DNA of 64,000 nt. It comes from an uncultured SAR116 cluster alpha proteobacterium (GTDB taxonomy: Bacteria > Pseudomonadota > Alphaproteobacteria > Puniceispirillales > Puniceispirillaceae). The stretch lies in assembly GCA_902596655.1 (NCBI GenBank), contig CACJUX010000003.1, forward strand, positions 11,649-75,648. Reading direction: 5' to 3'. Each line of letters starts with the position of its first letter. Position 1 is the first letter of the stretch. Both the position numbers and the translations under genes were made by a program. Positions 12,010 to 57,608 of the stretch are shown one piece after another. The notes beneath the pieces were generated by a model. That model saw only the letters and a program-made list of their open reading frames with translations. It searched no databases and was not told the DNA's origin.

Positions 12010-12059
12010 TTTAAACCCGTTACAATAACATGCAAGACGCACGTTTCCGGGAAAAGCAT

Positions 12060-26646: not shown

Positions 26647-29073
26647 ATGGCAATGAACATTAACACTAATGTTGGCGCTCTGATGGCATCAGCCGCCGCA
26701 AACTCCGTCAACAAGTCGATGGAACAATCAATGGAGCGGCTTTCTACTGGCCTGCGGATTAACTCTGCAGCCGATGATGCAGCTGGTTCAGCAATCACAA
26801 GCCGTCTCACATCTGAGATTAAAGGAACAAACCAAGCTATTCGTAATGCTATGGATGCCCAAGCAATGATCGAAACTGCTGAGGGTGCTCACATCGAGGT
26901 TGAGGCAATTCTTCAGCGCATGCGCGAGTTAGCCGTTCAGGCTGCCAACGATACAAATTCTGATTCAGATCGTGGAAATCTGCAGCTTGAGATCTCACAG
27001 CTTTCAGCTGAAATTGACCGCATCGCAGAGACCACAACATGGGCGGGCGTTAGCTTGTTGAATGGTAGTGACACCAGTTCCGATAAGTCGCTTTCTTTTC
27101 AAATTGGATCAGGTCCGGGTATAGGTGAGACCGTCACCCAGACAATCAGCTCTATAAATGCAAAAGCACTTGGTGTTACAGGTAATGCTGTTGCTCCCGA
27201 GGTTGAGTCCAACTACGTATCTGTGACCGGTGAGGGAGTTTTGGCGACCGAAGGTAATACAATCACATTTGGCGGAAAATTCAATGCAGGGGACGTGTAT
27301 AAAGTCACGATTGGCAACAAGCAACATTCAGTTACTGCTACAACTGGTGACGGATACACCGATGATGCTTCTGGTCTCGCAGCGCAATTAACAGACGCAA
27401 TTCGTGCAGAGCAAATCTCTGGCACAAACCAGCATGAGGGCATCACAGTTGTTGATCACGGAGATGGTTCACTCTCAGTATTTGCCGAACCCGAAATAAC
27501 AAAAGTGAAAGCTGAAGAAGGTGGTGCTGCTGATACGCAGACACTAACCTTCAACGAAGCCGACAAAACCTTTACGGTTGGCGGCACACATGAAGACGGG
27601 GACATCTACAAGCTCACAATCAACGGCGTTGACGTTGCAGTAACTACTGATAACACTACTAACAGTGAGTATAATGCAACAAAAGCTGGTGTTGCTGCTG
27701 AAATCGTCGCAACTATCAATGCTGCCGCAGGTGGTTTGGCTGAACTGGCGACTGGTGGTGTTAGAGCATTCGTCGATGGTGATGACCCCACAAAGTTCCG
27801 CGTTGTGCAAGACGTCTTATTCAGCGCTGAGGAATATACGGCAATAACTCCCGGGGTTTCACCAACAATAACTGCAGCAGAAGTATCGGGAGCCTCAACA
27901 ATAGATTTTGCGAACACACCTAGTGAAGGCGATAAATTCACCACCACGATCAACGGTGTCACAGTTGAAATCGAGCTGACAGCTGACGACGGCTATGACC
28001 GTACAGCTACCGGTGCAGCGCTGAAGATGGAGGCTGCCATACAAGCCAAAATTGATAGCGGTGAACTTAAGGGCGTCACAGTTGGATCCACTAATGCGCA
28101 AATTACAGTCACGCAAAGTGGTACTACCGTTGAAGTTGGCACACCCGAAGTCATTGACGTTAGTTCTAGTGGTTTGATTGCGCAATACTCCGATGCAAAC
28201 TCCAGATTCGAGTTTGATACCGGTGCCAACTTCACAGCTGGTACAAAAGGTACTCTTGCAAATGGCGACACGGCTCGAGTGAGTATCAATGGCGTTACCA
28301 TTGAAGTAATAACCGATACGACTGACGGTTATGACGATAGCGCTGATGGTTTGGGCAGAGAGATGACAGACCTCATCAACAATAATGAGGAACTCAAAGC
28401 TCAGGGTATCACTGCGGCATTCACTAAAGCGGACAGTGGCAACTTAGCAGCTTTGGTAACGCTATCTTTCACACCACAGCTATCCAAAACTCAGTTTGTC
28501 AAAGCTGAAGACATTTCTACCAGCCAAAACGCTGCCGATATGTCAACAACGTTGACACTCAATAAGAGTGCTTTCGCACACGGTGACCAGCTTTCGGTTG
28601 ACGTTGAGGGCACAAAAATTGAGCTCACAATCGACACATCAGACAGCTTTGCGGATGATAAGGCTGGTGTAGCAGCACAGATTAAGACAGCTATCGATGC
28701 GCAAGGCATCAATGGTGTAACGGTTACTGATAATGGTGACGGTTCAATCTTGATCGAAAAGCCATCTGCGGCCAATGTGACTAGTGCAGTAGCTGCAACA
28801 AAGACCATTGAGGTTATCGACGCTGCATTCGTAACGTTGAACACGCAGCGGTCTTCACTTGGTGCGATTTCTAATCGCTTAGATAGCACAGTCTCTAACC
28901 TGACAAACGTTGTAACGAACCTTGAAAGCGGTCGTGCACGTATCCAGGATGCAGACTTTGCTGCAGAGAGCACAAACCTTGCCAAGCAGCAGATCCTCCA
29001 GCAGGCTGCAACTTCAATGCTGGCTCAGGCAAATGCTTCTAAGCAATCTGTACTTAGCCTTCTGCAGGGCTAA
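26647..29073 (+). CDS. fliC: Flagellin (808 aa, large hypervariable region)
   Basis: N-terminal D0/D1 (MAMNINTNVGALMA..LSTGLRINSAADDAAG) and C-terminal D1/D0 (LGAISNRLDSTVSNL..ATSMLAQANASKQSVLSLLQG) are conserved. The ~530-aa central region is built of repeated modules. Confidence 0.95.
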   Translation: MAMNINTNVGALMASAAANSVNKSMEQSMERLSTGLRINSAADDAAGSAITSRLTSEIKGTNQAIRNAMDAQAMIETAEGAHIEVEAILQRMRELAVQAANDTNSDSDRGNLQLEISQLSAEIDRIAETTTWAGVSLLNGSDTSSDKSLSFQIGSGPGIGETVTQTISSINAKALGVTGNAVAPEVESNYVSVTGEGVLATEGNTITFGGKFNAGDVYKVTIGNKQHSVTATTGDGYTDDASGLAAQLTDAIRAEQISGTNQHEGITVVDHGDGSLSVFAEPEITKVKAEEGGAADTQTLTFNEADKTFTVGGTHEDGDIYKLTINGVDVAVTTDNTTNSEYNATKAGVAAEIVATINAAAGGLAELATGGVRAFVDGDDPTKFRVVQDVLFSAEEYTAITPGVSPTITAAEVSGASTIDFANTPSEGDKFTTTINGVTVEIELTADDGYDRTATGAALKMEAAIQAKIDSGELKGVTVGSTNAQITVTQSGTTVEVGTPEVIDVSSSGLIAQYSDANSRFEFDTGANFTAGTKGTLANGDTARVSINGVTIEVITDTTDGYDDSADGLGREMTDLINNNEELKAQGITAAFTKADSGNLAALVTLSFTPQLSKTQFVKAEDISTSQNAADMSTTLTLNKSAFAHGDQLSVDVEGTKIELTIDTSDSFADDKAGVAAQIKTAIDAQGINGVTVTDNGDGSILIEKPSAANVTSAVAATKTIEVIDAAFVTLNTQRSSLGAISNRLDSTVSNLTNVVTNLESGRARIQDADFAAESTNLAKQQILQQAATSMLAQANASKQSVLSLLQG
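27253..28761 (+). repeat. Five tandem ~75-90-aa IN-motif-like modules in the flagellin variable region
   Basis: The units are centred on VTIGNKQHSV, LTINGVDVAV, TTINGVTVEI, VSINGVTIEV and VDVEGTKIEL. Each is followed by a DGY/D-rich loop, an Ala-rich helix (e.g. ASGLAAQLTDAIRAE, KAGVAAQIKTAIDAQ) and a G(I/V)TV..D.GDGS strand. Confidence 0.75.
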
Positions 29074-30228: not shown

Positions 30229-31509
30229 TCACCTAATGTAATCAAAAAGAGTTTGTGAACCTATCTTTACAAATGCCTGCTGAGCTGCATCGCGATTCAC
30301 AATTTGTGACTGTAGTTCTGTTATAAGCGCGGCAAGATCAGCATCTTCAATAGAAGAAATATTTTCAGTCATTAAAAGAAGTCTCCTATCAATAACCTCC
30401 TGTTGCATTTCGCCTTTGCGTATTTGCGCACCAACCGATGTCCTTTCAACATTGATATGCTCTAATACACTTTTCAAACGGGCTATGCCTGCATTAGAAT
30501 TAGCCAAAGGCGTGGCGACGCCAGACTCCAGGTCAACTTTGACACCCTCATCCACACTTGCCTGTAAGCTCAACATTGTTGCACCTGTAACGCCAGTTTC
30601 AGTCGCAGTTAGGCTAAAATTCGTACCGTCCTCTCGTGCAAAGATAACTGTATTATTGTCTAATTTGGCGCTAAAACCTTTTTTGTTATCAAGTTTTTCA
30701 AATGCCTCCATCACTGCAACCATAGCCTCATCGCCATCGCCTGCGTTGAGTGGCAGTGTATTAAATTGTAAATCATCATCTGCACCAAAATTTTCACCCG
30801 TCAAATTAATGTGCAGCACCTCACTACCTTCAGCCTTTACACCATTTTCCTGAAAATTAAGAGTAATATTGGCTTGTTTGATAGTGTTTTGATTGAGATT
30901 ATTTTCAATGATTTCAAAAATCTTGAAAACACTTGTGGCTGAACCACCAGCCTTTGCCCGCAGAAAAATTCCTGCACCGTCTACACCTGTATCCATTTTC
31001 ATGGATTCTGACACCTGAACAGCATGGATGCCCCTATCACCCTTGTATTCGACGGCACCCTCAGAGTTTTCTACAAACGGCATCACACCAACTTTGTAGC
31101 CGCTAAAAAGATAATCACCTTTCTCATCCGTTGCATTGGCAATGCCCTTAAGGCCCTCCTTTAATTGGCCAATTTCTTTAGCTATGGCCTTTCTATCAGA
31201 AGGACTGTAGGTGTCATTATTAGCCTGAATTGATAACTCATAAGCTCGTGTAATTATGTTCGCAGCATCACCCAGCATATTTTCTACAAGTGTTAATCGC
31301 TTATCCGCACGTTGAATATTTGTAGCAAATCTCTCAAGAACGACTTTTTGTCCCTTAACAAATGATATGTTCGCCGCTGCAACAGGATCATCAGACGCTT
31401 TCATCACGTTCTTACCCGTCGCGATTTTTGCTTGTGTCTGCTGAATTTGACCTGTCAGCGATTTAAAGCGCTCAATGGATTGCTCGTTATATAATTTGGT
31501 ACTGATCAT
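30229..31509 (-). CDS. flgL: Hook-filament junction protein FlgL (HAP3)
   Basis: 426 aa with flagellin-like N- and C-terminal helices (SDDPVAAANISF.., RTSVGAQIRKGEMQQEV..EDADLAALITELQSQ). Position follows flgK. Confidence 0.9.
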   Translation of the reverse strand: MISTKLYNEQSIERFKSLTGQIQQTQAKIATGKNVMKASDDPVAAANISFVKGQKVVLERFATNIQRADKRLTLVENMLGDAANIITRAYELSIQANNDTYSPSDRKAIAKEIGQLKEGLKGIANATDEKGDYLFSGYKVGVMPFVENSEGAVEYKGDRGIHAVQVSESMKMDTGVDGAGIFLRAKAGGSATSVFKIFEIIENNLNQNTIKQANITLNFQENGVKAEGSEVLHINLTGENFGADDDLQFNTLPLNAGDGDEAMVAVMEAFEKLDNKKGFSAKLDNNTVIFAREDGTNFSLTATETGVTGATMLSLQASVDEGVKVDLESGVATPLANSNAGIARLKSVLEHINVERTSVGAQIRKGEMQQEVIDRRLLLMTENISSIEDADLAALITELQSQIVNRDAAQQAFVKIGSQTLFDYIR

Positions 31510-31533: not shown

Positions 31534-34500
31534 TTATCTGAAGCTCTCAAGCAGTGAATTAAATAGTTCACGAGCAGTTGAAAGGACCCTAGCAGATGCT
31601 TGGTAAGCTTGCTGCTGCTCAATAAGATTGGCGGCCTCTGTATCAAGATTAACGCCAGAAAAACTTGCCTCTGCCTCTAAGCTAGCATCTTTGAGCGCTA
31701 TTGCGGCATTTGCACCCAACTCACTGGCCTGAACTAGGCTTCCTAGTTTCGACATCGTTTCACTGAAAATTTTTTGAAACCCGCCCCTACCATCGCTTCG
31801 ACCGTTCCCACTTTGCAGGCTTGTTAAGTCAAGCATTGCAGTGGCATCGCCAATACCCTCGCCGTTGTCGGCGATGTGAAACTCATCACCGTCCACCAAT
31901 GCACCAAAAAAAGTAACGTTGAAGCCCTCAGCTTCACAACTTCCATTGGAGTCTAGCGTCCGATTAGCAAGCGAAGTTCCAGATTGCGTATCAATAAATT
32001 CAACATAGCCTGTTTTTTCATCAAGAACTTTAATCATTATGTCTCGGTGAAGTTTGGGACCCTCAACTGGTATTGCGTCGTATTGTAGAGAGAGTTTTTT
32101 CGCGCCATTGTTGCCAACAATAATAATCAGTTCTTCATCTGGTAAATTTGACAAGGTGAGGCGTTCTCCAACGTTGCTTTTTGCAGTACCAGTGAATTGT
32201 GGCGCTTCAATTTCACTGTTGAGAGAATTGGCTTTTAACATCGCGCCCTGACGGACGAGATCAAAATCTAAAGCGGTATAGCCACTGCCAATAGTGGTAG
32301 AGGATGTTGCAACTCCTGATGTTAGATCTACCGTTCCGTCTGGCCAGATATTTGCCTGAAGGGTAATCGCAGTGGACCCTACTGTTCCCCCCTCAGTCAT
32401 CGTAAAATTAAAGTTGCCACCATCGGGCCTTGTGAACCACAACACATCATTGTCTCCAATGTGCGCAGAATATCCATTTTTATCAGAAAGGCTATCAAAC
32501 GCGTCTTTAATGGCAACCAGAATTTCAGTTTCGTCACCGGATGCCAACGCCGCTGTGGTGAATGTCAGGTCTCCAGTTACTCCACCTAACCCGTCATCCA
32601 GTGTAATTTGAAGTGTCTCATTTCCTTCAGCAGCGACTCCCCCTGTTTTAAAATCCAATCCAATCCAAGCTTGGTTTGAGTAAAAATTTGTTGGCACTTC
32701 ATCATTTTGCATGATCCCAAAACGCTGCGCAGCAGCCGTATTGTTTGCAATTAAACCGTCATCAACCACAGTAATTTCCGACTTGCTGAGTGTACCACCA
32801 TTTGAGGCAACCTGTAGCTTCAAGTTGGCATCAAAAAAAGCGTTTAATCTCCCTGGCTCGCCACCACTAACAATCACCTCACCATCAATCATTGTTAAGC
32901 TATACTGTTGTCCTTCAAATGACAGGTAGACAACATCACCATCTACTGGCGGCGTTTCCATCTCCCCGGAAATCAGATTGCCCGCGCTTGAATAAGACAA
33001 ATTAACCGCGTTATCGGGACCACCACTAACGGTGATGTTGCTGCCATCGCTTGTGAATATATAGGTGCCCCCTTGATAGCCAACGGTCATCGACCCAGCG
33101 CTGTTTATCGCACTTTCTGTTAAGCCAACATCGCTGAGAGTGAAGGAATATGGAGTTTTAAGACTTACAAGGCCCTCAATATAAGCGGAAGGTGCATTCT
33201 TCCGTAATTCTCTGGCCACTGCAATCGCGACATCTGCGCCTGTTGTTCCGGCTACATCATCGCGATCAACCGTAGCACTCAGGCCGTCAATGTTTACTGA
33301 ATATGATACTTGTTTGGCTGACGCAAATTTTCCATTTGGAGAGGCTTCATTCGTATCAATGCCCTCCAAATAGTCAAAGGTTATGGAAGAATTTGAGGTA
33401 CTAAAATCAGTGTCTATTAAAATTTCAGACTGCGAGGCGGATCTCTGGATCTCCACATCCATATAGCCAGAAACGCCAGATTCGTTCCGATAGTCTCCGT
33501 TATAAACAGCGCCAGAGTTAAAAGCTCCACTCTCATCCATCTGAGACTGCCAGTAAGCTATTTTCGTGTCAGTTGGTGTACTGCCTGCTATGTGCCTGCC
33601 TTCCCGCGTAAAAATTTGGATATTGGAGGCCTCATCAATTTTGTTGGTTATTACAGCTGACACTGTCCTTCCAGTCGTAAGTGAGATGCCACCAGAAGAA
33701 AAGCGATTATCTGACAGACTGATAGTCAAATTACCGTCGGCACCAGAAGCAAAACCACCAAGCTCTGATAATTTTACAGCCGAACCGTCACTTACCTTTA
33801 CACCGGTCAAACTACCAACATTAAGCAAATCAGAAATTTGCCTCATGTTTCGCCAACCGTCACTATCTTCATTGAAATTGGATTGATCTAACGTAAATTT
33901 GAATTCCTCGGTGACGTCATTGTCATTAGCGTCCTTGGAAATAATTTTCAGAGAAAGGTGAGTAGCGCTCAGCATGTCCGCGTCACTTAACCCAAATTTC
34001 ATGCTAGATTGTTGGGATAATGAAAATAAATCAATTGATGTAAATTCAGCAGGAATGACAGTAACAGGTCCGCCGGTTAAAAATTGTGTGGCGGAAATTA
34101 TTGATCCGTCATTCGAGAACGTATCAGCAGCAGACGGCAGACCAGTGGATGAAGATTGATTACTTGTTGTGGCGGCCATTTCAGCATCACTGCGGTTTGC
34201 AGCATCAGCTGAAACAAGCAATGGTGAAGCTGCAGCAAATTCGTGCGGACGCCTAATTGAGACCCCAACGCCGGAAGCTGTGCCTGAGATTGGATCTATC
34301 ACAAATTGATCAAAGTTTTCGGCCTTACCCCTAAATTGAATAGCCAAGCCAGGTAGATCCACCTTTGCTCTGCCGCTTGTTACGAGGGTTCCATCTTCTT
34401 TGCGTCCATTCCAAAGTTCACTTTTCGCATCATATGAAAAAGTGATTTTATCAGATGTCAGCAAACTAAAATCATGAATTTCAGCTTCTGCTTTCGCGGC

Positions 34501-35520
34501 ACCAGCATTCGTTGGATTCTCGGTCAAATTTATATCGATATCTTGAAATAAATTTTTCCCAGGAAGGCCCTCTAAGTCCAATCCACTTTTATGTAAGAGA
34601 TTCATGTCTTGAACAAATTTGAAGGCAAGGTGATCAATTTCGTTCATGACACTTGATATTACTGCGTAGCTCTCAGCAAACCCAGCCAAGCTGCCGTCAC
34701 TAACCTGAGAAGTGTAAATATTGTCCACGCCCGGTCCGACAACATAAGAAAGATGTGTCTCACTTGGATCCAACCCCAACAATCTGAAGGAATTGTTATC
34801 AACGAGGACGGGCCCACTTCCAGATGTACCAATCTTTAAATTAGCAGCGCCACTTTCAGCCAAAGAAACACTCATTCCAGCGGAAGTTGTAATTTGGTCA
34901 ATTAATGCATCGCGCCTATCTAACAACGCGTTATTGACTTTGACCCTTCCAGCCGCCGCAATTTGTTGATTCAATAAACTGAGTTCCTCAGTTAGCATAT
35001 TCAATGAGGCCAATTCTTGTTTGGCTTGAGTGATAATGCCTTCCTTTAACTGCGACACAATTTTAGAAACATCGGTGAAATTGTCAGCCACCATCTTAGC
35101 ATCTTCCAGCGCAACAACCCTCGGCGCCAGATCCGATGGTGCGGTTGCTATTTCTTGTAAACTAGAAAAAAACTGACCGATTGTCGTTCCAAGATTGGAT
35201 TCGCCTGGCAGCAGAATGTCCTCTAATTGCTTCAAGCCCGCGTAAAGAGCTTCCTTGGACTCTGCACTCGCGGTCGCGCTTCTCGCTTTATTCAACAAAA
35301 ATTCATCGAAAGATCTTCGAATGCCAGTGATACGCACTCCAACACCAGTTTGTCTTTGAATGCCAGTGACGCTTCCTGTGCCAGCAGGAATTTCCTCAAG
35401 GCCTGCTTCGCGTCTCTTATATCCATCGGTATCAATATTGGCGATATTCTGACCCGTGACGGCCAACGATTGGCGATATGCCTGCAGGCCAGATTTACCA
35501 ATGTCAAAAAGGTTGGCCAT
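31534..35520 (-). CDS. flgK: Hook-filament junction protein FlgK (HAP1), giant (1328 aa)
   Basis: The N-terminus has the rod/hook motif (QNIANIDTDGYKRRE). The C-terminus is FlgK-type (VNLDTEAANLIEQQQAYQASARVLSTARELFNSLL). Position is between flgJ and flgL. Confidence 0.9.
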   Translation of the reverse strand: MANLFDIGKSGLQAYRQSLAVTGQNIANIDTDGYKRREAGLEEIPAGTGSVTGIQRQTGVGVRITGIRRSFDEFLLNKARSATASAESKEALYAGLKQLEDILLPGESNLGTTIGQFFSSLQEIATAPSDLAPRVVALEDAKMVADNFTDVSKIVSQLKEGIITQAKQELASLNMLTEELSLLNQQIAAAGRVKVNNALLDRRDALIDQITTSAGMSVSLAESGAANLKIGTSGSGPVLVDNNSFRLLGLDPSETHLSYVVGPGVDNIYTSQVSDGSLAGFAESYAVISSVMNEIDHLAFKFVQDMNLLHKSGLDLEGLPGKNLFQDIDINLTENPTNAGAAKAEAEIHDFSLLTSDKITFSYDAKSELWNGRKEDGTLVTSGRAKVDLPGLAIQFRGKAENFDQFVIDPISGTASGVGVSIRRPHEFAAASPLLVSADAANRSDAEMAATTSNQSSSTGLPSAADTFSNDGSIISATQFLTGGPVTVIPAEFTSIDLFSLSQQSSMKFGLSDADMLSATHLSLKIISKDANDNDVTEEFKFTLDQSNFNEDSDGWRNMRQISDLLNVGSLTGVKVSDGSAVKLSELGGFASGADGNLTISLSDNRFSSGGISLTTGRTVSAVITNKIDEASNIQIFTREGRHIAGSTPTDTKIAYWQSQMDESGAFNSGAVYNGDYRNESGVSGYMDVEIQRSASQSEILIDTDFSTSNSSITFDYLEGIDTNEASPNGKFASAKQVSYSVNIDGLSATVDRDDVAGTTGADVAIAVARELRKNAPSAYIEGLVSLKTPYSFTLSDVGLTESAINSAGSMTVGYQGGTYIFTSDGSNITVSGGPDNAVNLSYSSAGNLISGEMETPPVDGDVVYLSFEGQQYSLTMIDGEVIVSGGEPGRLNAFFDANLKLQVASNGGTLSKSEITVVDDGLIANNTAAAQRFGIMQNDEVPTNFYSNQAWIGLDFKTGGVAAEGNETLQITLDDGLGGVTGDLTFTTAALASGDETEILVAIKDAFDSLSDKNGYSAHIGDNDVLWFTRPDGGNFNFTMTEGGTVGSTAITLQANIWPDGTVDLTSGVATSSTTIGSGYTALDFDLVRQGAMLKANSLNSEIEAPQFTGTAKSNVGERLTLSNLPDEELIIIVGNNGAKKLSLQYDAIPVEGPKLHRDIMIKVLDEKTGYVEFIDTQSGTSLANRTLDSNGSCEAEGFNVTFFGALVDGDEFHIADNGEGIGDATAMLDLTSLQSGNGRSDGRGGFQKIFSETMSKLGSLVQASELGANAAIALKDASLEAEASFSGVNLDTEAANLIEQQQAYQASARVLSTARELFNSLLESFR

Positions 35521-38575: not shown

Positions 38576-39331
38576 TTAGCTAGGCATTCGCATTAGACTG
38601 GCACCAGCTTCGTCTGCCTCAGTGGCAGATGATATCAACTTAATGTTGACCTCATAGGCACGCTGGTCCTCAATCGTGTTGACGAGTTCCTCAGTGATGT
38701 TAACGTTGCTGAGTTCAACATGTTTTTGGACAATTGTCGGCACTTGATCGGCCAGTGGGAGGCCCCCACTCTCAGCCCTAATTTCGCCATCTTCAAATTT
38801 TTTTAACCTCTCACCGGCGCCCGATGTCATGCCAATCGTGGCGACGAATATTTTAGTCCCCGGCTCGGAGCCAAGTGGCTGCACAAAAATATCTCCGTTA
38901 TCTGCAATCTGGATAGACCGATATGCGCCAATCTTTATCGGTGTGAGATTCTTATCCAAAAAAAGATGCTTTGAGCCATTGATCAAGAAGCCATCATTAT
39001 TGACATTTAGATCGCCTCTTCGGGTCAGTGAGGGGGCGCCAGGCCCCTTCACCATAAAATAACCATCGCCTCTCAAAGCAACATCCATATCACTACCGGT
39101 TTGAGAAAGCGTGCCGGGCTCTGACTCAAAAATATTACTATCATCTCGGACTGCCAGGGCCCTTGTTTGGAAGGTGTTCTCGGCCATCAAGAATGCTGAC
39201 CCAACTGATTTAGTTCCCAAATCACGCCTGTAGCCAGGAACATTAACATTGGCCATATTTTGGGCGCGCACCGACCGATTGTCATAGATATTGTTCAGCG
39301 TATTGAAAGCTGTATAAATCAACCTATCCAT
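38576..39331 (-). CDS. flgF: Proximal rod protein FlgF
   Basis: 251 aa with N-terminal AQNMANVNVPGYRRD and C-terminal ELSNVNITEELVNTIEDQRAYEVNIKLI. Position is between flgE and flgG. Confidence 0.85.
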   Translation of the reverse strand: MDRLIYTAFNTLNNIYDNRSVRAQNMANVNVPGYRRDLGTKSVGSAFLMAENTFQTRALAVRDDSNIFESEPGTLSQTGSDMDVALRGDGYFMVKGPGAPSLTRRGDLNVNNDGFLINGSKHLFLDKNLTPIKIGAYRSIQIADNGDIFVQPLGSEPGTKIFVATIGMTSGAGERLKKFEDGEIRAESGGLPLADQVPTIVQKHVELSNVNITEELVNTIEDQRAYEVNIKLISSATEADEAGASLMRMPS

Positions 39332-39364: not shown

Positions 39365-42300
39365 TTACATCCGGATATTAATGATTGTCTGGGTCAGACC
39401 AGTTGTTGTTTCAATAGCCTTTGCAGATGCCTGGAAGTTTCGCTGAGCAGTAATCAGATTGACCAACTCTTCAGTGATATCAACGTTGGAACGCTCGAGC
39501 GAACCAGACAGAATGTTGCCAAAGCCCTCAGAACCAGCCTCTCCGACCTGCGGCGCACCAGAAACAGCTGTCTCCGTGTAAGTCGCGTTACCAATCTGTT
39601 TCAAACCGTTTTGGTTGTTGAAGTTGGCTACAACGATCTTACCAAGTGGGTTATTCTGACCATTCGTGTAGTTTGCCCGGATTGTACCAGATGAGTCGAT
39701 CTCGATACCATCGAGACGTCCCGAAGTAAAACCATCCTGCTCAACCGTTAGCACCGAGAAGGGCTGCGCCAGCTGTGTAGAGGTTGAGAAATCAACATCC
39801 AATGAGATCGACAGTCCCTCACCCTGCTTTTCGTAATGCACTAAGTTTTTTGGGCTAACAAGCTTACCTGTCTTATCAAAAGTCAATTCACCCTCATCGA
39901 TGTATAGAGGGAAATAACCATCAACGATATTCTCAGGAGGGTTGGTTACAACCTCGCCATCTGCGTCAACGAAAAGAGCAACCCCATCTTTGTCCGTCGC
40001 CTGAACCAGATTAAAAATCTCCGGGACAGTCCCAACGCCCAAAGGTACCTCATCAAGGCCGAGGCGGGCAGCGCCTTTAACTTTAATTGTCGAGTCTGAG
40101 CCCGTGGTGCCTGATGAAAAAGTGAAGTTATTGGAGTCGCTGCTGTAAGAGACAGTCACACCACCAATCTGCACACCTGTTACCGGATCAACAATCTGGT
40201 TTATGCGTGTCTGCAATGCTTCAGCCAATGTTGTGCCAACATAGGATGTTGCCGGCACTTCAATGATCCCGCTAATGCCGTTCACCGAGACATTAAAGAT
40301 ATTGTCACCAGCCTGATTTGAAAGTTTGAAAACATTAGTGAGTGGTTCATTCGCGCTAGCACCAACTGCAGTAGCCGAAGTTGCTTTGAGACCTTTACCA
40401 GAAGTAAAAAGAAAGCCGTTCTTTGAGGCTCCCACGCCAAATAAGGAATTATCACCATTACCGATGACAGTGGCATCAACATCATAAGGTTGGGCCACAC
40501 GAGCGCCTGTTGTCGCACTGATCGCGTAACGGCCAACCTGAATATTAGAAGCTTTCTGATCAGTGCTAACACCATTGGCACCATTAGCTGCGATTGCCTC
40601 TCCTGTGGTGCCGCTCGAGATTGTAAAGTTCTGTAGTTCACTATTATAAGCGACATTGACACCAAATCGTTTATCGTTCGGCTGGATTTCTTCTCCTGTG
40701 GCCGTGAAGGCTGAGCCAAAGTAAACCTCACCACCCCGGATCGCCACGCGCTGTGCGTTATCAGCATTGGTCAGACCCAAATTGTTTGTGCCTGTCTGTG
40801 TGGCTGAGCCATAGGCAGAAAAAGAGTTAAAGTTACTGTCGGTACCTGACCCCAGCACTGTACGATCAACCTCAAATTTCAGACGCTGGTTGATTGAATC
40901 ATAGCCAACTTTTACAGGTGGATTTTTCTCATCAACCCAATCAACAGAGCTTTTTTCACCCACGGTACTTTCAATAGCTGTATTGCTAAGCGCGGAATAT
41001 GTTCCTTCCTCACCTTCCACACTTACTGAAAATACGTTCGTGGTAAGGGTAGTTGTTATCGAAACCTCGGCATTGTCATCGCGCGATATAAAGAGTTTTG
41101 TGATGGTAGCGTCGGCCGGTGCAGGGTCCACATTAGCAACCGTTGAACCCACATTCCTCCAGTTATCCGCAGTGGTTTCAGCAACCACATCACCGGCAGC
41201 GTTGACAAAGGTAAAGGAATAACCCTTTAGATCTACTCCATCTAGAGCTGTCACCAGAGCTGCCATGGGTGTTCCAGCATCACCATTCGCAAGAGCCCCA
41301 GTCGCAATGGTCAAATCATTCGAATTATCAGAACCACTGCTTAAAACTATATTCATGGTTTCTCCACCACCTAAAGTAGCTGCTGCCGGTTCAGTGACCA
41401 CCAATTGTCTATGAAAATTCTGCAAACCAAGAGAAGTCAATTTAGTCGCTAAAGTAGTAGCTCCATTTAGTTCCTCCGCAGTATTGTCGATCCTCCAAGC
41501 GCTCGCAACAAATGCGCCTTTTTCAGTGGTGTTTTCTGTTGTGCTCTGAAGTTCCCTCATCACAATTTTTTGGCTCGAATATATCTCTCTTGCACCTTCA
41601 TATACAGGCGATGTACCCTCAAAAAATGCTTCCATGGTTGGCTCATCATCGGTGGGGCTGGTAAGCGCAAAAATGTCCGTTGCAGTTCCAACAGTGATGT
41701 TGAAATCCTCATCAGCAACAGCAAGTCCAGAAGTACTAACGTCGATATATCCTGCATTACCTCCATCTGCAGGCGTAACCGAATTTATAACGAGGGTCCG
41801 CCCATTAAGGTCACCACGTAATCCGGTATCACCTGCAAGCATCAGGCTTCTTCCTTGCTCAAAATTAGTTGTATCAGCAACGTAGATGCGGAGCCTATTT
41901 TCGGTAGCAGCAAACTCGATCAAGTTTGTTCCATTGCCGCTAACGGCCTCTGCTTCTTTGAACACCGATAAAGCTGGACGTTTGTTGAAATATGAGTGGA
42001 CCATAAAGTGCTTATCTGTAGGGTCATCGGTTCGCTCAACCTCAATCATAGTAGAATACTCATAAGGTTCAGCGATTGCCTCACCTTTTGTTTTGACGAA
42101 TTGCAATCCACCAACACCAAGAGGATCATCTGAAAATTCACGGCCATACTCATTGAGTGTTTCATTGATACGAATTTGCGAATGAGCGAGAAACTGTTCC
42201 TTTGTAAAATCTGGCGATGTGCCAGAAATCGAGAAGTCGCTTCCCATAGCTTCAGTAACAAAGCTGTCTGTTCCCAAAAGCTCCACAGCAATTTTATTTG

Positions 42301-43549
42301 TCAAGTTCGAGACTGTTCCATCTGCACCAACACGCTGGAAATCGAATGTGATGGTGTCGTCAACATTCTGCTCAACCTGGAACTTGCGGTCATCACCATA
42401 GGCAGCGTTGATTGCGCGCTCCACCTCGGCGGCTAATTGCGTAGCGTTATAGAGGCCAGGGTTAATGTCAATGCTAACTGGCTGGTCTGAGTCATCAACA
42501 TTGACCAGAAGGAAATCCTTGCCCCAGTAAACATCACTTCCAGTGTTGCCGGCTTCACGTGTTGCTTTGAATTGAAGTGGGTCGGTAACAATCTCAACAA
42601 GCTTGTCACCCTCCTCACCAAAGTCGAAACTACTCGACTCACCAGTGACCGATGCCGGCTGTGACGGCACTTTTGTCTGCAGATCGTCGAGTTTGTAAAG
42701 CGGTGAGCCCTTACCCTCAATGAAGTAGTTGTCATCAGGAATAGAAGTTGTCTGTTGACCAAATCGGTCAACGAAGATTTGATTGCCCGCATCATCAACT
42801 GCACTAACAAGATCCGGGTCAATTATAGTGTCATTAATTACCAAACGAGTATCGTATTTGTTTGTCGGGTCTTCGGCAGTTGCTGCTTGCGTCTTGATAA
42901 AATAGACCGTTGCAATTGTTGGATTACCCAAATCATCAAAGATTGTAATCGATGTTGAATTAGAAAAAGTGTTTGGGTCATTCGGATTAAACTCATACCC
43001 ATCCGAGAAAGCAGATCTATCAGTTACGACGTCAGATGCCGCATTGACGTTCACACCAAGAGTTATGTTTGACGTCGCCTGAGGATCACCAGAAGTAACC
43101 GGCAATTGCAGAGGAACTGCACTGTCAAGATCCTTTGCGGTCACAGAACCGTCCGTGTTAACCGGATATGTGAGAAGAAATTGACCTGCAGAATCAACCA
43201 CATAACGGTCGTTGTTTACACTTAATGATCCGTTTCGAGTGTAAACTGTTTGGCTAGCGGTCAAAGATGGCTTGAGGGCAAAGTAACCCTGACCGGATAT
43301 CGCAAGATCAAGTGCGTTAAGAGACGAGGCGATGTTACCCTGGGTAAACTGCTGCTTGATACCCTTTAGGATAGTACCAGAACCAATTGATGATGAAGCA
43401 TTCTGCAACGGTGAAGTCGCAAAAATATCACCAAACTCGACGCGGCTTCTCTTGAAGCCCGTAGTGCCAACGTTGGCGATATTGTTAGACGTCGCCGAAA
43501 TATCAGCCGACGATCCATTCAATCCTGTCAATGCGGTATAAAATGACAT
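39365..43549 (-). CDS. flgE: Flagellar hook protein FlgE, giant (1394 aa)
   Basis: N-terminal SNNIANVGTTGFKRSRVEF and C-terminal LERSNVDITEELVNLITAQRNFQASAKAIE hook/rod motifs. It sits in the canonical flgD-flgE-flgF slot as one uninterrupted ORF. Confidence 0.9.
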   Translation of the reverse strand: MSFYTALTGLNGSSADISATSNNIANVGTTGFKRSRVEFGDIFATSPLQNASSSIGSGTILKGIKQQFTQGNIASSLNALDLAISGQGYFALKPSLTASQTVYTRNGSLSVNNDRYVVDSAGQFLLTYPVNTDGSVTAKDLDSAVPLQLPVTSGDPQATSNITLGVNVNAASDVVTDRSAFSDGYEFNPNDPNTFSNSTSITIFDDLGNPTIATVYFIKTQAATAEDPTNKYDTRLVINDTIIDPDLVSAVDDAGNQIFVDRFGQQTTSIPDDNYFIEGKGSPLYKLDDLQTKVPSQPASVTGESSSFDFGEEGDKLVEIVTDPLQFKATREAGNTGSDVYWGKDFLLVNVDDSDQPVSIDINPGLYNATQLAAEVERAINAAYGDDRKFQVEQNVDDTITFDFQRVGADGTVSNLTNKIAVELLGTDSFVTEAMGSDFSISGTSPDFTKEQFLAHSQIRINETLNEYGREFSDDPLGVGGLQFVKTKGEAIAEPYEYSTMIEVERTDDPTDKHFMVHSYFNKRPALSVFKEAEAVSGNGTNLIEFAATENRLRIYVADTTNFEQGRSLMLAGDTGLRGDLNGRTLVINSVTPADGGNAGYIDVSTSGLAVADEDFNITVGTATDIFALTSPTDDEPTMEAFFEGTSPVYEGAREIYSSQKIVMRELQSTTENTTEKGAFVASAWRIDNTAEELNGATTLATKLTSLGLQNFHRQLVVTEPAAATLGGGETMNIVLSSGSDNSNDLTIATGALANGDAGTPMAALVTALDGVDLKGYSFTFVNAAGDVVAETTADNWRNVGSTVANVDPAPADATITKLFISRDDNAEVSITTTLTTNVFSVSVEGEEGTYSALSNTAIESTVGEKSSVDWVDEKNPPVKVGYDSINQRLKFEVDRTVLGSGTDSNFNSFSAYGSATQTGTNNLGLTNADNAQRVAIRGGEVYFGSAFTATGEEIQPNDKRFGVNVAYNSELQNFTISSGTTGEAIAANGANGVSTDQKASNIQVGRYAISATTGARVAQPYDVDATVIGNGDNSLFGVGASKNGFLFTSGKGLKATSATAVGASANEPLTNVFKLSNQAGDNIFNVSVNGISGIIEVPATSYVGTTLAEALQTRINQIVDPVTGVQIGGVTVSYSSDSNNFTFSSGTTGSDSTIKVKGAARLGLDEVPLGVGTVPEIFNLVQATDKDGVALFVDADGEVVTNPPENIVDGYFPLYIDEGELTFDKTGKLVSPKNLVHYEKQGEGLSISLDVDFSTSTQLAQPFSVLTVEQDGFTSGRLDGIEIDSSGTIRANYTNGQNNPLGKIVVANFNNQNGLKQIGNATYTETAVSGAPQVGEAGSEGFGNILSGSLERSNVDITEELVNLITAQRNFQASAKAIETTTGLTQTIINIRM

Positions 43550-43613: not shown

Positions 43614-44318
43614 TTACTTTATTGCACTGCGAAATTTCGTTACGTCTGCAGCCCTGATCTCGCCATAGTCACGGACGTCTAGCATCACCCCTGTCAGAGA
43701 GTCACCCTTTGAGGCGGCAAGCACCTCTGCAAATACGGATGGTGTCAATGCCTCCTTGCCACTGCCAAAGTCGGCGTAGGCCTCAATGCGAACGGCCTGA
43801 CCACTGTTAGCCATTTCCTCAGGCATATCTTCCCAAGAAAAACCAACGAGACCGGCAGGCTGCGCACCTAGATCAATTGAATGCATAATCTGACCGTTGT
43901 CATCAGTGAACACCAGACTTGTAGAGGTCGATGACCGAGGTAACTCAAGCATGCCGTGGATTTCACCCCTGTCATCAGGGCGTGCATAATTGCCAGGCAC
44001 CATAACAGAGTTTCCAAGCATGTTTGACGCCGTTGCGATACGGAACTCAGACAGTTGGTCGGCGATTCCCTTAAGGGTTTGGCTCATCTCCGTGATACCT
44101 GTTACCTGAGAGAATTGTGCCATCTGCTCCACCATTGCCGTATTGTCCATAGGGGCAAACGGATCCTGGTTCTGCAGCTGAGTTGTCATGAGCTTCAAAA
44201 AATCAGACTGACCGAGTGAGTCAGCGTTCTTCTTCTGAGCCGCCTCCTCCTGATTTACACCTAATTTCTTTAGAATGCTGTCAAGTTGCGTTTGGCTTGC
44301 TGGGTCTATCGTACTCAT
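43614..44318 (-). CDS. flgD: Hook capping/scaffold protein FlgD
   Basis: 234 aa with the FlgD N-terminal motif (LGQSDFLKLMTTQLQNQDPFAPMDN..MAQFSQV). Confidence 0.9.
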   Translation of the reverse strand: MSTIDPASQTQLDSILKKLGVNQEEAAQKKNADSLGQSDFLKLMTTQLQNQDPFAPMDNTAMVEQMAQFSQVTGITEMSQTLKGIADQLSEFRIATASNMLGNSVMVPGNYARPDDRGEIHGMLELPRSSTSTSLVFTDDNGQIMHSIDLGAQPAGLVGFSWEDMPEEMANSGQAVRIEAYADFGSGKEALTPSVFAEVLAASKGDSLTGVMLDVRDYGEIRAADVTKFRSAIK

Positions 44319-46433: not shown

Positions 46434-46774
46434 GGACCCTGGTCCGCACTAGGTTCTACCTTGCCGCAGGTATCCTGTTGCTGTCAGCCTGCGACGAGTT
46501 TAACCGTTTCAAACAGGAAAAATATGAATGTGCATGGAATCCTGCAGGGATTCTGGAGATTGAATTGCGCTCAACTAAGGTTGATGCCGATGCGAATATT
46601 GTGACAGTTGAAGGAAATCAGATTGGCAAACTTGTTTTCAGCGATGACCGAGAGCTGATAATTGAAGCGCCGGAGCTTATTATCCGAATTGACCGGGATA
46701 AGTCACTCATCAAGGCCACAAGAGTTACCCGATATTACGAAATGCGGTGCAGGAAGACTGAGTTTAAAATGTAA
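46430..46774 (+). CDS. Hypothetical small lipoprotein
   Basis: 114 aa with signal peptide and lipobox (AAGILLLSAC). It is translationally coupled to the acidic protein gene. Confidence 0.55.
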   Translation: MRTLVRTRFYLAAGILLLSACDEFNRFKQEKYECAWNPAGILEIELRSTKVDADANIVTVEGNQIGKLVFSDDRELIIEAPELIIRIDRDKSLIKATRVTRYYEMRCRKTEFKM

Positions 46775-56675: not shown

Positions 56676-57485
56676 TCAGCCAATTAGCCGTTTAGACATA
56701 TCCACCGCCGCTTGCAGCAGGCGTGATGACGCGGAATAAGCCTGTTGGGCCTGCATCATCTTCGTCAACTCATCTGTCATGTTGATGTTTGACATTTCTA
56801 AATTGCCGCTTTGAATGTCGCCAAAATTTTCAGACCCTGCTGTACCGAAAGTAGGCAGGCCTGATTTTTCAGTGGTGACGAACTGACCGCTACCGATCGA
56901 TTTTAAACCAGCAACATTGCTGAATCTGACCAGTGCAATCGTCCCAATTTCAACAATTTCCGAGGGAGCAGCACTCTTGTTGGCCACTTCAGTGCCATAA
57001 ACCGCTTCGATGACGCCACCTTGGGATATATTTACTGCCGTTAACAATTGTCTTTGGCCGTCGAGATTAAACCTTTGTATGGGAATGAAGATTGGCTGGC
57101 CCTCTGAATCGATCAAAGAGCGTCCATCCCATGCCACTACGCGTCCATCGTCCTCCAGCCGCATAGATCCATCTCGGGTAAAAACAACTGGATTTGCATC
57201 ATCTGGGTTGGTTGTCACAAACATACCAAGCCCAGATACAGCCAGATCAAGTTCATTTGCGGTAGGCTTAAGGGCACCCTGCGAATGCTGGCGACGTGGA
57301 CCATCTGTGCGCGCGCCCTGTCCAAGGTCAATCCCAGGAAGTGAACCCAAGCCCACACCATAGGTATCATAAAAATCTGCACGGCTTTTCTTGAAGCCGT
57401 TCGAGCCCGCATTTGCGATATTATGCGATACGACAGATAGATTGTGGGATGCAGCCTCGAGGCCATTGCGGATCGTTGGTATCAT
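56676..57485 (-). CDS. Additional flagellar rod/hook-family protein (FlgF/FlgG-like paralogue) outside the flgB-L operon
   Basis: ATG 57485 has a strong AAGGAAGGA SD. N-terminal VVSHNIANAGSNGFKKSRADF and C-terminal NLEMSNINMTDELTKMMQAQQAYSASSRLL family motifs. ~270 aa. Confidence 0.8.
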   Translation of the reverse strand: MIPTIRNGLEAASHNLSVVSHNIANAGSNGFKKSRADFYDTYGVGLGSLPGIDLGQGARTDGPRRQHSQGALKPTANELDLAVSGLGMFVTTNPDDANPVVFTRDGSMRLEDDGRVVAWDGRSLIDSEGQPIFIPIQRFNLDGQRQLLTAVNISQGGVIEAVYGTEVANKSAAPSEIVEIGTIALVRFSNVAGLKSIGSGQFVTTEKSGLPTFGTAGSENFGDIQSGNLEMSNINMTDELTKMMQAQQAYSASSRLLQAAVDMSKRLIG

Positions 57486-57608
57486 GATGGTCCTTCCTTT
57501 ACTTAAACCGTTTCTTCCAATTTTCATGCCAAAACAGCCCAGACGCAGTAATTTTGATAAAAATTCGAAAATCCTTCATGGACCTGACGACGCAAACCGT
57601 CGCCAGAT

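What the first reader, a model, noticed from the sequence alone, without database searches (positions are those of the whole stretch)
39365..43549. Giant 1394-aa hook protein FlgE with roughly 1100 extra residues between canonical termini
The ORF sits in the canonical flgD-flgE-flgF slot. It has the hook/rod N-terminal motif (NNIANVGTTGFKRS) and C-terminal motif (LERSNVDITEELVNLITAQRNFQASAKAIE), yet it runs uninterrupted for 1394 codons. From general knowledge, enterobacterial hooks are about 400 aa and the large epsilonproteobacterial hooks are roughly 700-900 aa, so this one is far outside the usual range. The extra sequence is Thr/Ser/Asp/Gly/Asn/Val-rich and beta-type. It contains recognisable sub-modules, for example IN-like units near nt 42335-42487 and 40100-40297, rather than simple low complexity. 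That implies a hook with several additional outer domains per subunit, so a much thicker or decorated hook.
Basis: partly seen in the sequence, partly recalled or inferred. Interest (0 to 1): 0.75.

Follow-up and report, generated by a model that had tools for sequence, protein, structure and literature searches.

The report
Giant multi-domain flagellar hook protein
This is a real, strongly conserved gene for a flagellar hook protein three times the usual size, found in SAR116 and other marine Alphaproteobacteria, and its roughly 960 extra residues fold into outer domains that should make an unusually thick hook nobody appears to have studied.

Summary
The ORF is real: minus strand, 39365-43549, 1394 aa, 147 kDa, between flgD and flgF. 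Its ends form a normal 435-aa Vibrio/Pseudomonas-type FlgE core (D0, D1, D2). A 959-residue block (residues 262-1220) is inserted inside D2. It is not an artefact. The identical protein occurs in a second assembly. At least 305 stretches encoding relatives were found in species-representative genomes (SAR116, PS1/Parvibaculales, Rhodobacterales), and the ORFs recovered from the 80 kept are 1244-1763 aa. Synonymous sites are saturated while modules A and C stay 93-98% identical. AlphaFold2 folds residues 140-1270 confidently (pLDDT 87.6). The insert has three parts: conserved module A, hypervariable module B that carries all length variation, and conserved module C. The insert has no significant Pfam match. 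Its sequence occurs almost only in FlgE proteins. It does not resemble Campylobacter D3/D4. Module C weakly resembles H. pylori FliD and phage tail-sheath domains. Part of B is shared with the neighbouring giant FlgK and FlgL. The likely function is an extra concentric shell giving a hook about 33-36 nm wide, but this is inferred. One caveat is a conserved 283-aa D2-less FlgE/FlgG-like paralogue nearby. I found no paper describing hooks this size. Verdict: a new variant of a known kind.

The parts
39365..43549 (-). flgE, giant hook protein: 1394 aa, 147.2 kDa, pI 4.25
   Evidence: ORF list and translation. Pfam and NCBIfam. Molecular weight. 100% identical protein in a second assembly.
43130..43549 (-). 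Residues 1-140: N-terminal D0, Dc and D1 segment
   Evidence: Flg_bb_rod 3-33 and LlgE_F_G_D1 83-127. 92-98% identity across 55 homologues. No FlgG-specific insertion.
42767..43129 (-). Residues 141-261: N-terminal part of D2
   Evidence: The PDB FlgE sequences 9yee and 8z5u align to query 4-221/233. NCBIfam FlgE equivalogs align to 1-234/261. The model shows beta strands at 161-261, and Foldseek matches FlgE D2 domains with probability 0.97-1.00.
42140..42766 (-). Residues 262-470: module A, a conserved alpha/beta insert domain
   Evidence: No Pfam hit at E <= 10. 83-88% mean identity over residues 251-400, falling to 58-65% by 401-500. dN/dS 0.005-0.016. The model has helices at 369-384, 430-439 and 450-471, with block pLDDT 77-95, mostly about 90. 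Present in all complete giant FlgEs.
40970..42139 (-). Residues 471-860: module B, a hypervariable all-beta region holding all length variation
   Evidence: Identity falls to 19-58%, with 35-48% gaps at 701-850. Insertions and deletions of 15-350 aa map to about 507-870, all inside module B or at its C-terminal border. dN is about 10 times that of A and C. A profile of 681-860 hits FlgK 964-1020 (E = 2.7e-8) and FlgL 231-338 (E = 1e-5).
39890..40969 (-). Residues 861-1220: module C, the conserved family-defining insert, partly duplicated internally
   Evidence: Found in every protein that shares the insert. 93-95% identical to the closest species while dS > 1. The motif at 962-990 matches 1130-1161 (E = 1e-6 and 5e-5). 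Foldseek: H. pylori FliD 6iwy probability 0.99, phage PhiTE tail 9cba probability 0.90. Sub-threshold Flagellin_IN match at 1085-1148.
39365..39889 (-). Residues 1221-1394 plus stop: C-terminal part of D2, then D1 and D0
   Evidence: The PDB FlgE sequences align to 1245-1393. Flg_bbr_C 1348-1392. 86-99% identity.
43614..44318 (-). flgD, hook cap, normal size (234 aa)
   Evidence: Pfam FlgD, FlgD_ig and FLgD_tudor. Immediately upstream of giant flgE in 65 of 74 related loci.
38576..39331 (-). flgF, proximal rod (251 aa)
   Evidence: NCBIfam FlgF models. Immediately downstream in 64 of 74 loci.
31534..35520 (-). flgK, giant hook-filament junction protein (1328 aa, 140 kDa); shares a decoration domain with FlgL and with FlgE module B
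   Evidence: TIGR02492 248 bits against a cut-off of 170.75. FlgK_D1. FlgK 950-1084 matches FlgL 212-345 at 44% identity, E = 1e-25. FlgE-B2 profile hit.
30229..31509 (-). flgL (426 aa), carrying the shared domain at residues 212-345
   Evidence: TIGR02550 247.6 bits.
26647..29073 (+). Large flagellin (808 aa, 83 kDa)
   Evidence: Flagellin_N and Flagellin_C. NCBIfam flagellin models.
10060..12042 (-). fliK, hook-length ruler (660 aa)
   Evidence: Pfam Flg_hook, E = 2.5e-14.
56676..57527 (-). Extra D2-less FlgE/FlgG-like paralogue: 283-aa ORF, probably 269 aa starting at Met15
   Evidence: TIGR03506 188.6 bits, but no equivalog cut-off reached. Lacks the FlgG-specific insertion, as FlgE does. 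Best PDB matches are FlgG at 1e-30 and FlgE at 2e-27. 566 homologues of about 260-283 aa. Same position next to fliA in a genome that is 37% identical.

Best explanation
This is the hook subunit FlgE of a Vibrio/Fla1-type polar flagellum in a SAR116-clade alphaproteobacterium.

The core is an ordinary 435-residue FlgE: D0 and D1 build the inner tube, and D2 sits outside them. A loop of D2 carries a nested 959-residue insertion of several folded domains. Conserved modules A (262-470) and C (861-1220) bracket a hypervariable, length-variable module B (471-860).

Shown here: the gene is real and under strong purifying selection. The insert folds. The insert's sequence occurs almost only in FlgE proteins. 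The architecture is conserved in several orders of marine Alphaproteobacteria.

Inferred: each of the roughly 120 subunits exported through the flagellar type III channel polymerises on the usual 11-protofilament lattice through D0 and D1. The extra domains would then form further concentric shells around D2, as D3 and D4 do in Campylobacter. That would give a hook about 33-36 nm across, against 18 nm in Salmonella and 28 nm in Campylobacter.

In this reading, conserved A and C make the extra contacts within and between protofilaments that stiffen and strengthen the joint. B is the outermost, solvent-exposed layer, free to vary under pressure from phages, grazers or other surface interactions. 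Together with the giant FlgK, the enlarged FlgL and the 808-aa flagellin, the whole external axial structure would be thick.
For: Identity as FlgE: Pfam D0, D1, D2 and C-terminal domains. TIGR03506 scores 274 bits against a cut-off of 70, and FlgE equivalogs align to residues 1-261 and 1221-1393. The polar-hook FlgE structures 9yee and 8z5u align at E = 7e-69 and 2e-65 to residues 4-233 and 1245-1393. There is no FlgG-specific insertion. The flgD-flgE-flgF slot is conserved in 57 of 74 loci.

Reality of the gene: an identical protein sits on a contig of a different assembly. 305 stretches encode relatives in the species-representative genome collection, including the complete genome of the cultured strain Seohaeicola saemankumensis, and the ORFs are 1244-1763 aa. 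dS is 1 or more against the closest species, while A and C are 93-98% identical, with dN/dS of 0.005-0.025 where dS could be estimated.

Folded outer domains nested in D2: the AF2 model has pLDDT 87.6 and pTM 0.80, with D2 strands at both ends. Foldseek matches only FlgE D2 domains with high probability.

Layering: conservation is high in A and C and low in B, with all length variation in or at the edge of B. This is the pattern reported for the surface-exposed variable regions of D3 and D4 in C. jejuni (PMC5097172).

Precedent for function: deleting D3 and D4 in C. jejuni and the 28-nm hook; the giant R. sphaeroides FlgK1 is needed to handle load (PMC7277832). The mass-scaling estimate gives 33.4-35.8 nm.

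Whole-system enlargement: FlgK is 1328 aa and the flagellin 808 aa, and a domain is shared among FlgE, FlgK and FlgL.
Against: No image, proteomic or expression evidence is available, so hook diameter, packing and mechanical role are all inferred. I had no model coordinates and could run no multimer prediction, so I could not check whether the extra domains fit on the hook lattice or which of them touch.

Module C folds less confidently on its own (pLDDT 77, pTM 0.53), so the domain boundaries are approximate. FlgE equivalog cut-offs are not reached (373.6 against 400), although the split alignment explains this.

A conserved D2-less FlgE/FlgG-like paralogue sits in the same cluster. I could not search the rest of the genome for another flgE.
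Confidence: 0.72

Rival explanations
1. The protein is the hook subunit, but the extra domains are not mainly mechanical. They would form a protective or interactive coat: a protein 'sheath' that hides the conserved hook core from flagellotropic phages and grazers, or that mediates adhesion to particles or algae. The hypervariable module B would be the functional surface.
For: Module B evolves about 10 times faster than A and C and carries all the length variation, including whole-domain gains of up to 350 aa. One part of B is a domain shared with FlgK and FlgL, which suggests a common surface layer along the axial structure. Structural matches are to decoration-type domains of phage tail sheaths and to the outer domains of H. 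pylori FliD.
Against: About 570 of the 959 extra residues (A plus C) are as conserved as the core, which points to fixed structural contacts rather than an arms race. dN/dS in B is still well below 1, at 0.17 in the one comparison where it could be estimated. No lectin, adhesin or enzyme family was detected. The two roles are not exclusive.
Confidence: 0.2
2. The working hook, or its proximal part, is built by the small D2-less FlgE/FlgG-like paralogue at 56676-57527 (minus strand). The giant protein would be a minor, distal or conditionally used hook component.
For: The paralogue lacks the FlgG-specific rigidifying insertion, as FlgE does. It reaches only the FlgE/F/G subfamily model and no FlgG or FlgF equivalog. 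It keeps its position next to fliA in a distant genome. JGI annotates its homologues variously as FlgE or FlgG. From general knowledge, D2-less hook proteins exist (Bacillus subtilis FlgE, about 264 aa).
Against: The giant gene occupies the flgD-flgE-flgF slot in 57 of 74 loci. Its D0 and D1 core is the most conserved protein in the operon: 80-90% identical across orders, against 41-45% for FlgF and 48-64% for FlgD. The paralogue's best full-length structural relatives by sequence are FlgG rod proteins. It lies outside the flgB-L operon.
Confidence: 0.06
3. The long ORF is an assembly or annotation artefact: a chimeric join, or a decaying gene read through.
For: The source is probably a single-cell or metagenome assembly, and the middle of the gene has no database domain.
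Against: The identical 1394-aa protein sits on a contig from another assembly. 120 listed homologues of 1209-1599 aa have the same four Pfam domains. Orthologues occur in complete genomes. dN/dS is far below 1 throughout. GC content is uniform, 0.456-0.478 across the modules against 0.489 for the window. The fold is confident.
Confidence: 0.01

Closest known systems
Campylobacter jejuni / Helicobacter pylori FlgE with extra domains D3 and D4 (718-865 aa; PDB 5jxl, 5az4)
   Same: It is a hook protein in which extra domains are nested inside D2 and form outer concentric layers. The hook is wider and stiffer (28 nm against 18 nm), and the exposed outer parts are variable (PMC5097172).
   Different: This insert is about twice as large (959 aa against roughly 450 extra). 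It has no sequence similarity to D3 and D4: only the C-terminal core aligns, and TIGR02489 scores 140 bits against a cut-off of 412.85. It has no structural similarity either (5jxl Foldseek probability 0.02). It appears to be an independent acquisition in a different phylum-level lineage.
Vibrio/Pseudomonas-type polar-flagellum FlgE (434-437 aa; PDB 9yee, 8z5u, 9wx3)
   Same: It is the closest solved relative of the core (E = 7e-69 and 2e-65). The 435-aa core is the same size, the D2 fold matches (Foldseek probability 1.00), and the gene cluster is of the same type, with FlgT, an LPP20/FlgP-like protein, FlhF/FlhG and a sigma-54 activator.
   Different: Those proteins have nothing between the two halves of D2. 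This one has 959 residues there.
Giant flagellins of Bermanella marisrubri and Oleibacter marinus (over 1000 aa; thick filaments)
   Same: It is an axial flagellar protein with conserved termini and a huge inserted outer region, in marine bacteria. Experiments showed that the extra mass gives a thicker filament (PMC6248924).
   Different: That work concerns the filament protein in Gammaproteobacteria. Its only FlgE mention is in a supplementary-file legend, and it does not discuss giant hooks. No sequence similarity between the FlgE insert and the window's own 808-aa flagellin was found.
Rhodobacter (Cereibacter) sphaeroides Fla1 FlgK1 (1363 aa, bulky hook-associated region)
   Same: It belongs to the same kind of horizontally acquired gamma-type flagellar cluster in an alphaproteobacterium. 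The axial protein is tripled in size by a central non-conserved region, and that region is required for swimming under load (PMC7277832). The window has the equivalent giant FlgK of 1328 aa.
   Different: In R. sphaeroides the hook protein FlgE1 is an ordinary 423 aa. Here the hook protein itself is giant too.
FliD cap outer domains / Flagellin_IN motif (PF07196), and phage tail-sheath decoration domains
   Same: Module C gives Foldseek probability 0.99 to H. pylori FliD (6iwy) and 0.90 to the phage PhiTE tail (9cba). The whole model gives probability 1.00 to two myophage sheath proteins. A full-length but weak Flagellin_IN alignment falls at residues 1085-1148.
   Different: E-values are marginal (2.9e-3 at best in the PDB), TM-scores are about 0.2 and identity is 13-21%. 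The Pfam score of 9.9 bits is far below the 22.7 cut-off. This is a fold-level resemblance, not membership.

Membership tests
FlgE (flagellar hook protein) | N-terminal D0 rod/hook motif (Flg_bb_rod) and C-terminal Flg_bbr_C helix | tested here: met
   PF00460 at residues 3-33 (27.1 bits, cut-off 20.7). PF06429 at 1348-1392 (57.4 bits, cut-off 23).
FlgE (flagellar hook protein) | D1 domain and a D2 domain (D2 distinguishes FlgE from the rod proteins FlgF and FlgG) | tested here: met
   PF22692 scores 38.7 bits and PF07559 FlgE_D2 59.8 bits against a cut-off of 22.7. Foldseek matches the FlgE D2 structures 9wx3, 8z5y, 1wlg and 3a69 at probability 0.99-1.00.
FlgE (flagellar hook protein) | Lacks the FlgG-specific insertion in the Dc region that makes the rod rigid | tested here: met
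   In the MAFFT alignment with the window's FlgG, FlgE has a gap where FlgG has its extra segment.
FlgE (flagellar hook protein) | Gene sits between the hook cap gene flgD and flgF in the flgB-L operon | tested here: met
   The same order is kept in 57 of 74 related loci.
FlgE (flagellar hook protein) | Reaches NCBIfam's curated FlgE equivalog score | tested here: inconclusive
   The best equivalog, NF004238, scores 373.6 bits against a cut-off of 400. The alignment is split into residues 1-234 and the C-terminus by the insert. The subfamily model TIGR03506 is passed (274.4 against 70.25).
FlgE (flagellar hook protein) | Polymerises into the hook | not testable with these tools
   This needs hook purification with mass spectrometry, or imaging.
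Epsilonproteobacterial large FlgE (D3/D4 type) | Sequence and fold of the D3 and D4 domains | tested here: not met
   TIGR02489 scores 140 bits against a cut-off of 412.85, aligning only the ends. 5jxl aligns only to query 1202-1393. Foldseek probability to 5jxl is 0.02.
Flagellin_IN motif (PF07196) | Pfam model match above the gathering score | tested here: not met
   Residues 1085-1148 score 9.9 bits, E = 1.1, against a cut-off of 22.7. The unit at 345-415 has no match. Nothing appeared when the insert was scanned as five pieces.
Giant-FlgE insert family (defined here: modules A and C) | Module C, and usually module A, sit between the two halves of D2 in a protein with FlgE termini | tested here: met
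   An exhaustive HMMER search of the insert against 1.84 billion representatives gave 357 hits. Every complete hit has FlgE ends and is 933-1650 aa. The one exception, P0141, has no FlgE ends.

The most novel reading that the evidence does not exclude
Several of the ocean's abundant motile Alphaproteobacteria (SAR116, PS1, RCA-type roseobacters) build an 'armoured' flagellum. In this reading a continuous protein coat runs from the cell surface along hook, junction and filament. It is made by outer domains of a giant FlgE, a giant FlgK, an enlarged FlgL and a large flagellin, with one decoration domain shared among FlgE, FlgK and FlgL and a hypervariable outermost layer shaped by phage or grazer pressure. 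The conserved D2-less FlgE/FlgG-like paralogue would build a thin adaptor or proximal hook segment where the roughly 35-nm hook cannot fit, giving a two-protein hook.
Probability: 0.15. Interest if true: 0.8.

Novelty: new variant of a known kind. Interest (0 to 1): 0.6.

Why it matters
The hook is the universal joint of the flagellum, and its mechanics are thought to be finely tuned. Only one class of enlarged hook, in Campylobacter and Helicobacter, has been studied, and there the extra domains proved essential for withstanding high torque.

This is a second, independent and much larger elaboration: 147 kDa per subunit, up to 1763 aa in relatives, and a predicted width of about 33-36 nm. Its carriers are not niche organisms. 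They include SAR116, PS1 and roseobacter lineages that are major components of surface-ocean bacterioplankton.

If the prediction holds, the known size range of hooks widens. It would also give a natural system for asking how flexibility is kept in a very thick joint, and how export and length control cope with a 1400-residue subunit. The hypervariable outer layer points to a surface that may matter for phage and grazer interactions in the sea. Cultured carriers exist, so the prediction is directly testable.

Tried and rejected
- **Pfam on the insert.** Scanning it as five overlapping pieces and as three short units at E <= 10 found no domain, apart from one sub-threshold Flagellin_IN match. 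The 'IN module' idea is therefore not adopted as membership.
- **Internal repeats.** BLAST self-comparison found none. hhalign of the family profile against itself found only a 22-column motif. Local HMMs confirmed a short C1/C2 repeat. The insert is not a tandem array.
- **Similarity to the window's own proteins.** No similarity to the flagellin or FliD was found. Only FlgK and FlgL share a piece with module B.
- **Alignment for folding.** I rebuilt it from session protein ids.
- **Whole-model PDB fold search.** It returned only D2 matches. Folding module C alone lowered confidence (pLDDT 77) but gave the FliD and phage-tail leads.
- **A second flgE elsewhere.** I could not search the rest of the source genome. 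I also could not test whether the 283-aa paralogue co-occurs strictly with giant FlgE, because it lies 13 kb from flgE and flanks are limited to 10 kb.
- **Literature.** Searches for giant or large FlgE, SAR116 or Puniceispirillum hooks, thick hooks and FlgE outer domains found nothing relevant. Subscription journals are not covered, so absence is not proof.
- **Misassembly.** Considered and rejected (see rival 3).

Full report
**1. The observation.** The ORF exists exactly at 39365-43549, but on the minus strand. It starts with ATG, runs for 1394 codons, and has a GGAG ribosome-binding site 7-10 nt upstream. Pfam finds the rod/hook N-terminal motif (3-33), the FlgE/F/G D1 domain (83-127), FlgE_D2 (59.8 bits against a cut-off of 22.7) and the C-terminal helix (1348-1392).

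The gene lies in a complete flagellar cluster. On the minus strand are flgB, flgC, flgD, flgE, flgF, flgG, flgH, flgI, a rod-binding FlgJ-like gene, flgK and flgL. Also present are fliC and fliD, fliE through fliR, flhB, motAB, flhA, flhF, flhG, fliA, flgM, flgA, FlgT and an LPP20/FlgP-like gene. This is a Vibrio/Fla1-type polar system.

**2. Where the extra sequence is.** NCBIfam FlgE equivalogs align to residues 1-234/261 and 1221-1393. The closest solved FlgEs by sequence are the 434-437-aa polar-hook proteins 9yee and 8z5u, which align to 4-233 and 1245-1393. Residues 1-261 plus 1221-1394 therefore make a 435-aa core of normal size. The excess is 959 residues (262-1220), inserted inside D2. 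The protein is 147.2 kDa, acidic (pI 4.25) and free of cysteine.

**3. It is not an artefact.**
- The identical protein sits on a contig of a different assembly, GCA_902526675.1.
- The database search returned 4051 hits. The best 120 are 1209-1599 aa, and nearly all carry the same four Pfam domains; the few that lack an end domain are among the shortest. They include proteins on complete genomes of cultured SAR116 strains: LSUCC0684 (1390 aa) and Ca. Puniceispirillum marinum (1575 aa).
- A scan of one genome per species found 305 stretches that encode relatives. In the 80 best that were kept (77 loci), the complete ORFs are 1244-1763 aa. They come from SAR116/Puniceispirillales, PS1/Parvibaculales (IMCC14465) and Rhodobacterales (LSUCC0031, Planktomarina, Lentibacter, and Seohaeicola saemankumensis ac14 at 1763 aa).
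- The order flgC-flgD-flgE-flgF-flgG is kept in 57 of 74 loci, and the rest are mostly cut by contig ends.
- Against the closest species, synonymous sites are saturated (dS of 1 or more). Modules A and C are nevertheless 93-98% identical, with dN/dS of 0.005-0.025 where dS could be estimated.

**4. Anatomy of the insert.** The alignment of 55 homologues divides it into three parts:
- Module A (262-470) is well conserved over its first ~140 residues (83-88% mean identity) and falls to 58-65% toward its C-terminal end.
- Module B (471-860) is hypervariable. Identity falls to 19-58%, and gaps reach 35-48%.
- Module C (861-1220) is conserved.

All length differences between family members map into or next to B. 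They include insertions of 115-350 aa near residue 507 in the P. marinum group, about 280 aa of extra sequence in Seohaeicola, and deletions in IMCC14465. dN in B is about ten times that in A and C, but the one measurable dN/dS is still 0.17.

AlphaFold2 on residues 140-1270, with a 68-sequence alignment, gives mean pLDDT 87.6 and pTM 0.80. In the model, D2 strands lie at both ends (161-261 and 1212-1269). Module A is alpha/beta, B is all-beta, and C is beta-rich with one helix (1105-1116). The insert is therefore a set of folded domains nested in D2, not low complexity.

**5. What the domains resemble.**
- Pfam finds nothing in the insert at E <= 10. The only exception is a sub-threshold but full-length Flagellin_IN alignment at 1085-1148 (9.9 bits, E = 1.1).
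- An exhaustive HMMER search of the insert against 1.84 billion representatives returns only 357 proteins. Every complete one has FlgE termini and is 933-1650 aa. The one exception is P0141, a 2492-aa protein with ALTTAQ repeats, a FlgE D2-like domain, segments resembling modules A and C, and a FlgD Ig domain, but no FlgE ends. The insert's sequence is thus almost entirely specific to FlgE.
- Foldseek of the whole model against the PDB gives high-probability matches only to FlgE D2 domains. The Campylobacter hook 5jxl scores probability 0.02, so these are not D3 or D4.
- Against viral models, two myophage tail-sheath proteins match with probability 1.00.
- Module C folded alone (pLDDT 77.2) matches H. 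pylori FliD (6iwy, probability 0.99, E = 2.9e-3) and the phage PhiTE contracted tail (probability 0.90).
- C contains a short internal repeat, 962-990 against 1130-1161.
- A profile of B2 (681-860) hits the window's FlgK (964-1020, E = 2.7e-8) and FlgL (231-338, E = 1e-5). FlgK and FlgL share that domain at 44% identity.

Taken together, the outer domains look like the decoration domains used on other helical assemblies. One of them has been exchanged among three axial proteins of this flagellum.

**6. How it most likely works.** What is shown: this is a FlgE with a large, folded, selected insert in D2. What follows is inference.

On the conserved 11-protofilament lattice, D0 and D1 build the tube and D2 the first outer layer. 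Domains nested in D2 must then lie further out. This is what happens in C. jejuni, where D3 and D4 widen the hook from 18 to 28 nm, add contacts within and between protofilaments, and are needed for a hook robust enough to swim (PMC5097172).

Scaling cross-sectional area by subunit length from those two structures predicts 33-36 nm here. The conservation pattern suggests that A and C make the fixed lattice contacts and that B is the exposed, tolerant surface.

The neighbouring genes fit a uniformly thick external structure:
- FlgK is 1328 aa. The R. sphaeroides Fla1 homologue of 1363 aa gives a visibly bulky junction and is needed under load (PMC7277832).
- FlgL carries an extra domain.
- The flagellin is 808 aa.

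In R. sphaeroides the hook protein itself is only 423 aa. A giant FlgE is therefore an additional step beyond that known system.

**7. Rivals.**
- (a) The coat is mainly protective or adhesive rather than mechanical. This is plausible for module B and is not exclusive with the main reading.
- (b) The hook, or its base, is made by a second protein. The window holds a 283-aa D2-less FlgE/FlgG-like paralogue (probably 269 aa) at 56676-57527 on the minus strand. It lacks the FlgG-specific insertion, reaches no equivalog cut-off, has about 566 homologues, and keeps its place beside fliA in a genome only 37% identical. I rate this rival low. The giant gene holds the canonical slot, and its core is the most conserved protein of the operon: 80-90% across orders, against 41-45% for FlgF and 48-64% for FlgD. 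Only proteomics can settle it.
- (c) Artefact. This is rejected (section 3).

**8. Novelty.** The proteins are in public databases under generic names such as 'flagellar hook-basal body complex protein'. The literature I could search calls the 865-aa C. jejuni FlgE 'one of the longest' (PMC5069557). [quoted passage not shown] The giant-flagellin study's only FlgE mention is in a supplementary-file legend, and it does not discuss giant hooks. Eight searches found no description of hooks of this size.

I therefore class it as a new variant of a known kind: an enlarged hook protein, independently evolved, about 1.6-2 times larger than any characterised one, and widespread in abundant marine Alphaproteobacteria. 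Interest is 0.6. A flagellum specialist would be surprised by the size and the distribution, and cultured carriers make it directly testable. The underlying principle, outer domains nested in D2, is already established.

Noticed in passing
window 31534-35520 (-) and 30229-31509 (-): flgK is also giant (1328 aa, 140 kDa). FlgK 950-1084 and FlgL 212-345 share a domain (44% identity, E = 1e-25), and a profile of FlgE module B also hits it. So one decoration domain is shared by three axial proteins. The R. sphaeroides FlgK1 of 1363 aa, with its bulky junction, is the known precedent.
   Followed up: partly
window 56676-57527 (-): An extra FlgE/FlgG-like protein without D2 (283-aa ORF, probably 269 aa from Met15) lies outside the flg operon, beside fliA. 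It lacks the FlgG-specific insertion and reaches no NCBIfam equivalog cut-off. It has about 566 homologues of 259-283 aa, annotated inconsistently as FlgE or FlgG. It keeps the same position in a distant genome (L079). Its role is unknown; it could be an adaptor or a proximal hook segment.
   Followed up: partly
window 26647-29073 (+): The flagellin is large (808 aa, 83 kDa), with about 575 residues between its Flagellin_N and Flagellin_C domains. No similarity to the FlgE insert was detected.
   Followed up: partly
flgE core compared with its neighbours, loci L014, L019, L031, L032, L071: The FlgE D0/D1/D2 core is 80-90% identical between SAR116, PS1/Parvibaculales and Rhodobacterales. In the same loci FlgD is 48-64%, FlgF 41-45%, FlgC about 57% and FlgG about 68% identical. 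Either the core of this FlgE is unusually constrained, or the gene or cluster has moved horizontally among marine Alphaproteobacteria.
   Followed up: no
protein P0141 (from the representative search; not in the window): This 2492-aa protein has 28 ALTTAQ repeats, a FlgE_D2 domain, segments resembling modules A and C, and a C-terminal FlgD Ig-like domain, but no FlgE D0 or D1 ends. It is the only non-FlgE context found for the insert domains.
   Followed up: partly
window 10060-12042 (-): FliK, the hook-length ruler, is 660 aa, against 405 aa in Salmonella according to a preprint abstract seen. I did not examine whether this implies a longer hook.
   Followed up: no
window 49228-51020 (-), 53490-56257 (+), 18526-19713 (-): The cluster carries Vibrio/Fla1-type accessories: FlgT, an LPP20 (FlgP-like) lipoprotein, FlhF, FlhG, FliA and a sigma-54 activator. 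That suggests a motor with outer-membrane disk or ring structures, which fits a high-torque system.
   Followed up: partly
window 57696-58082 (+): A 128-aa ORF next to the flagellar cluster has a weak match to the NHLP leader-peptide (RiPP precursor) family: 22.5 bits against a cut-off of 50.9.
   Followed up: no
window 45312-46774 (+), 2074-3900 (-), 12137-12556 (-): Several ORFs inside the flagellar cluster have no Pfam match: 373, 114, 290, 269 and 139 aa. The 139-aa ORF sits where fliJ would be expected.
   Followed up: no
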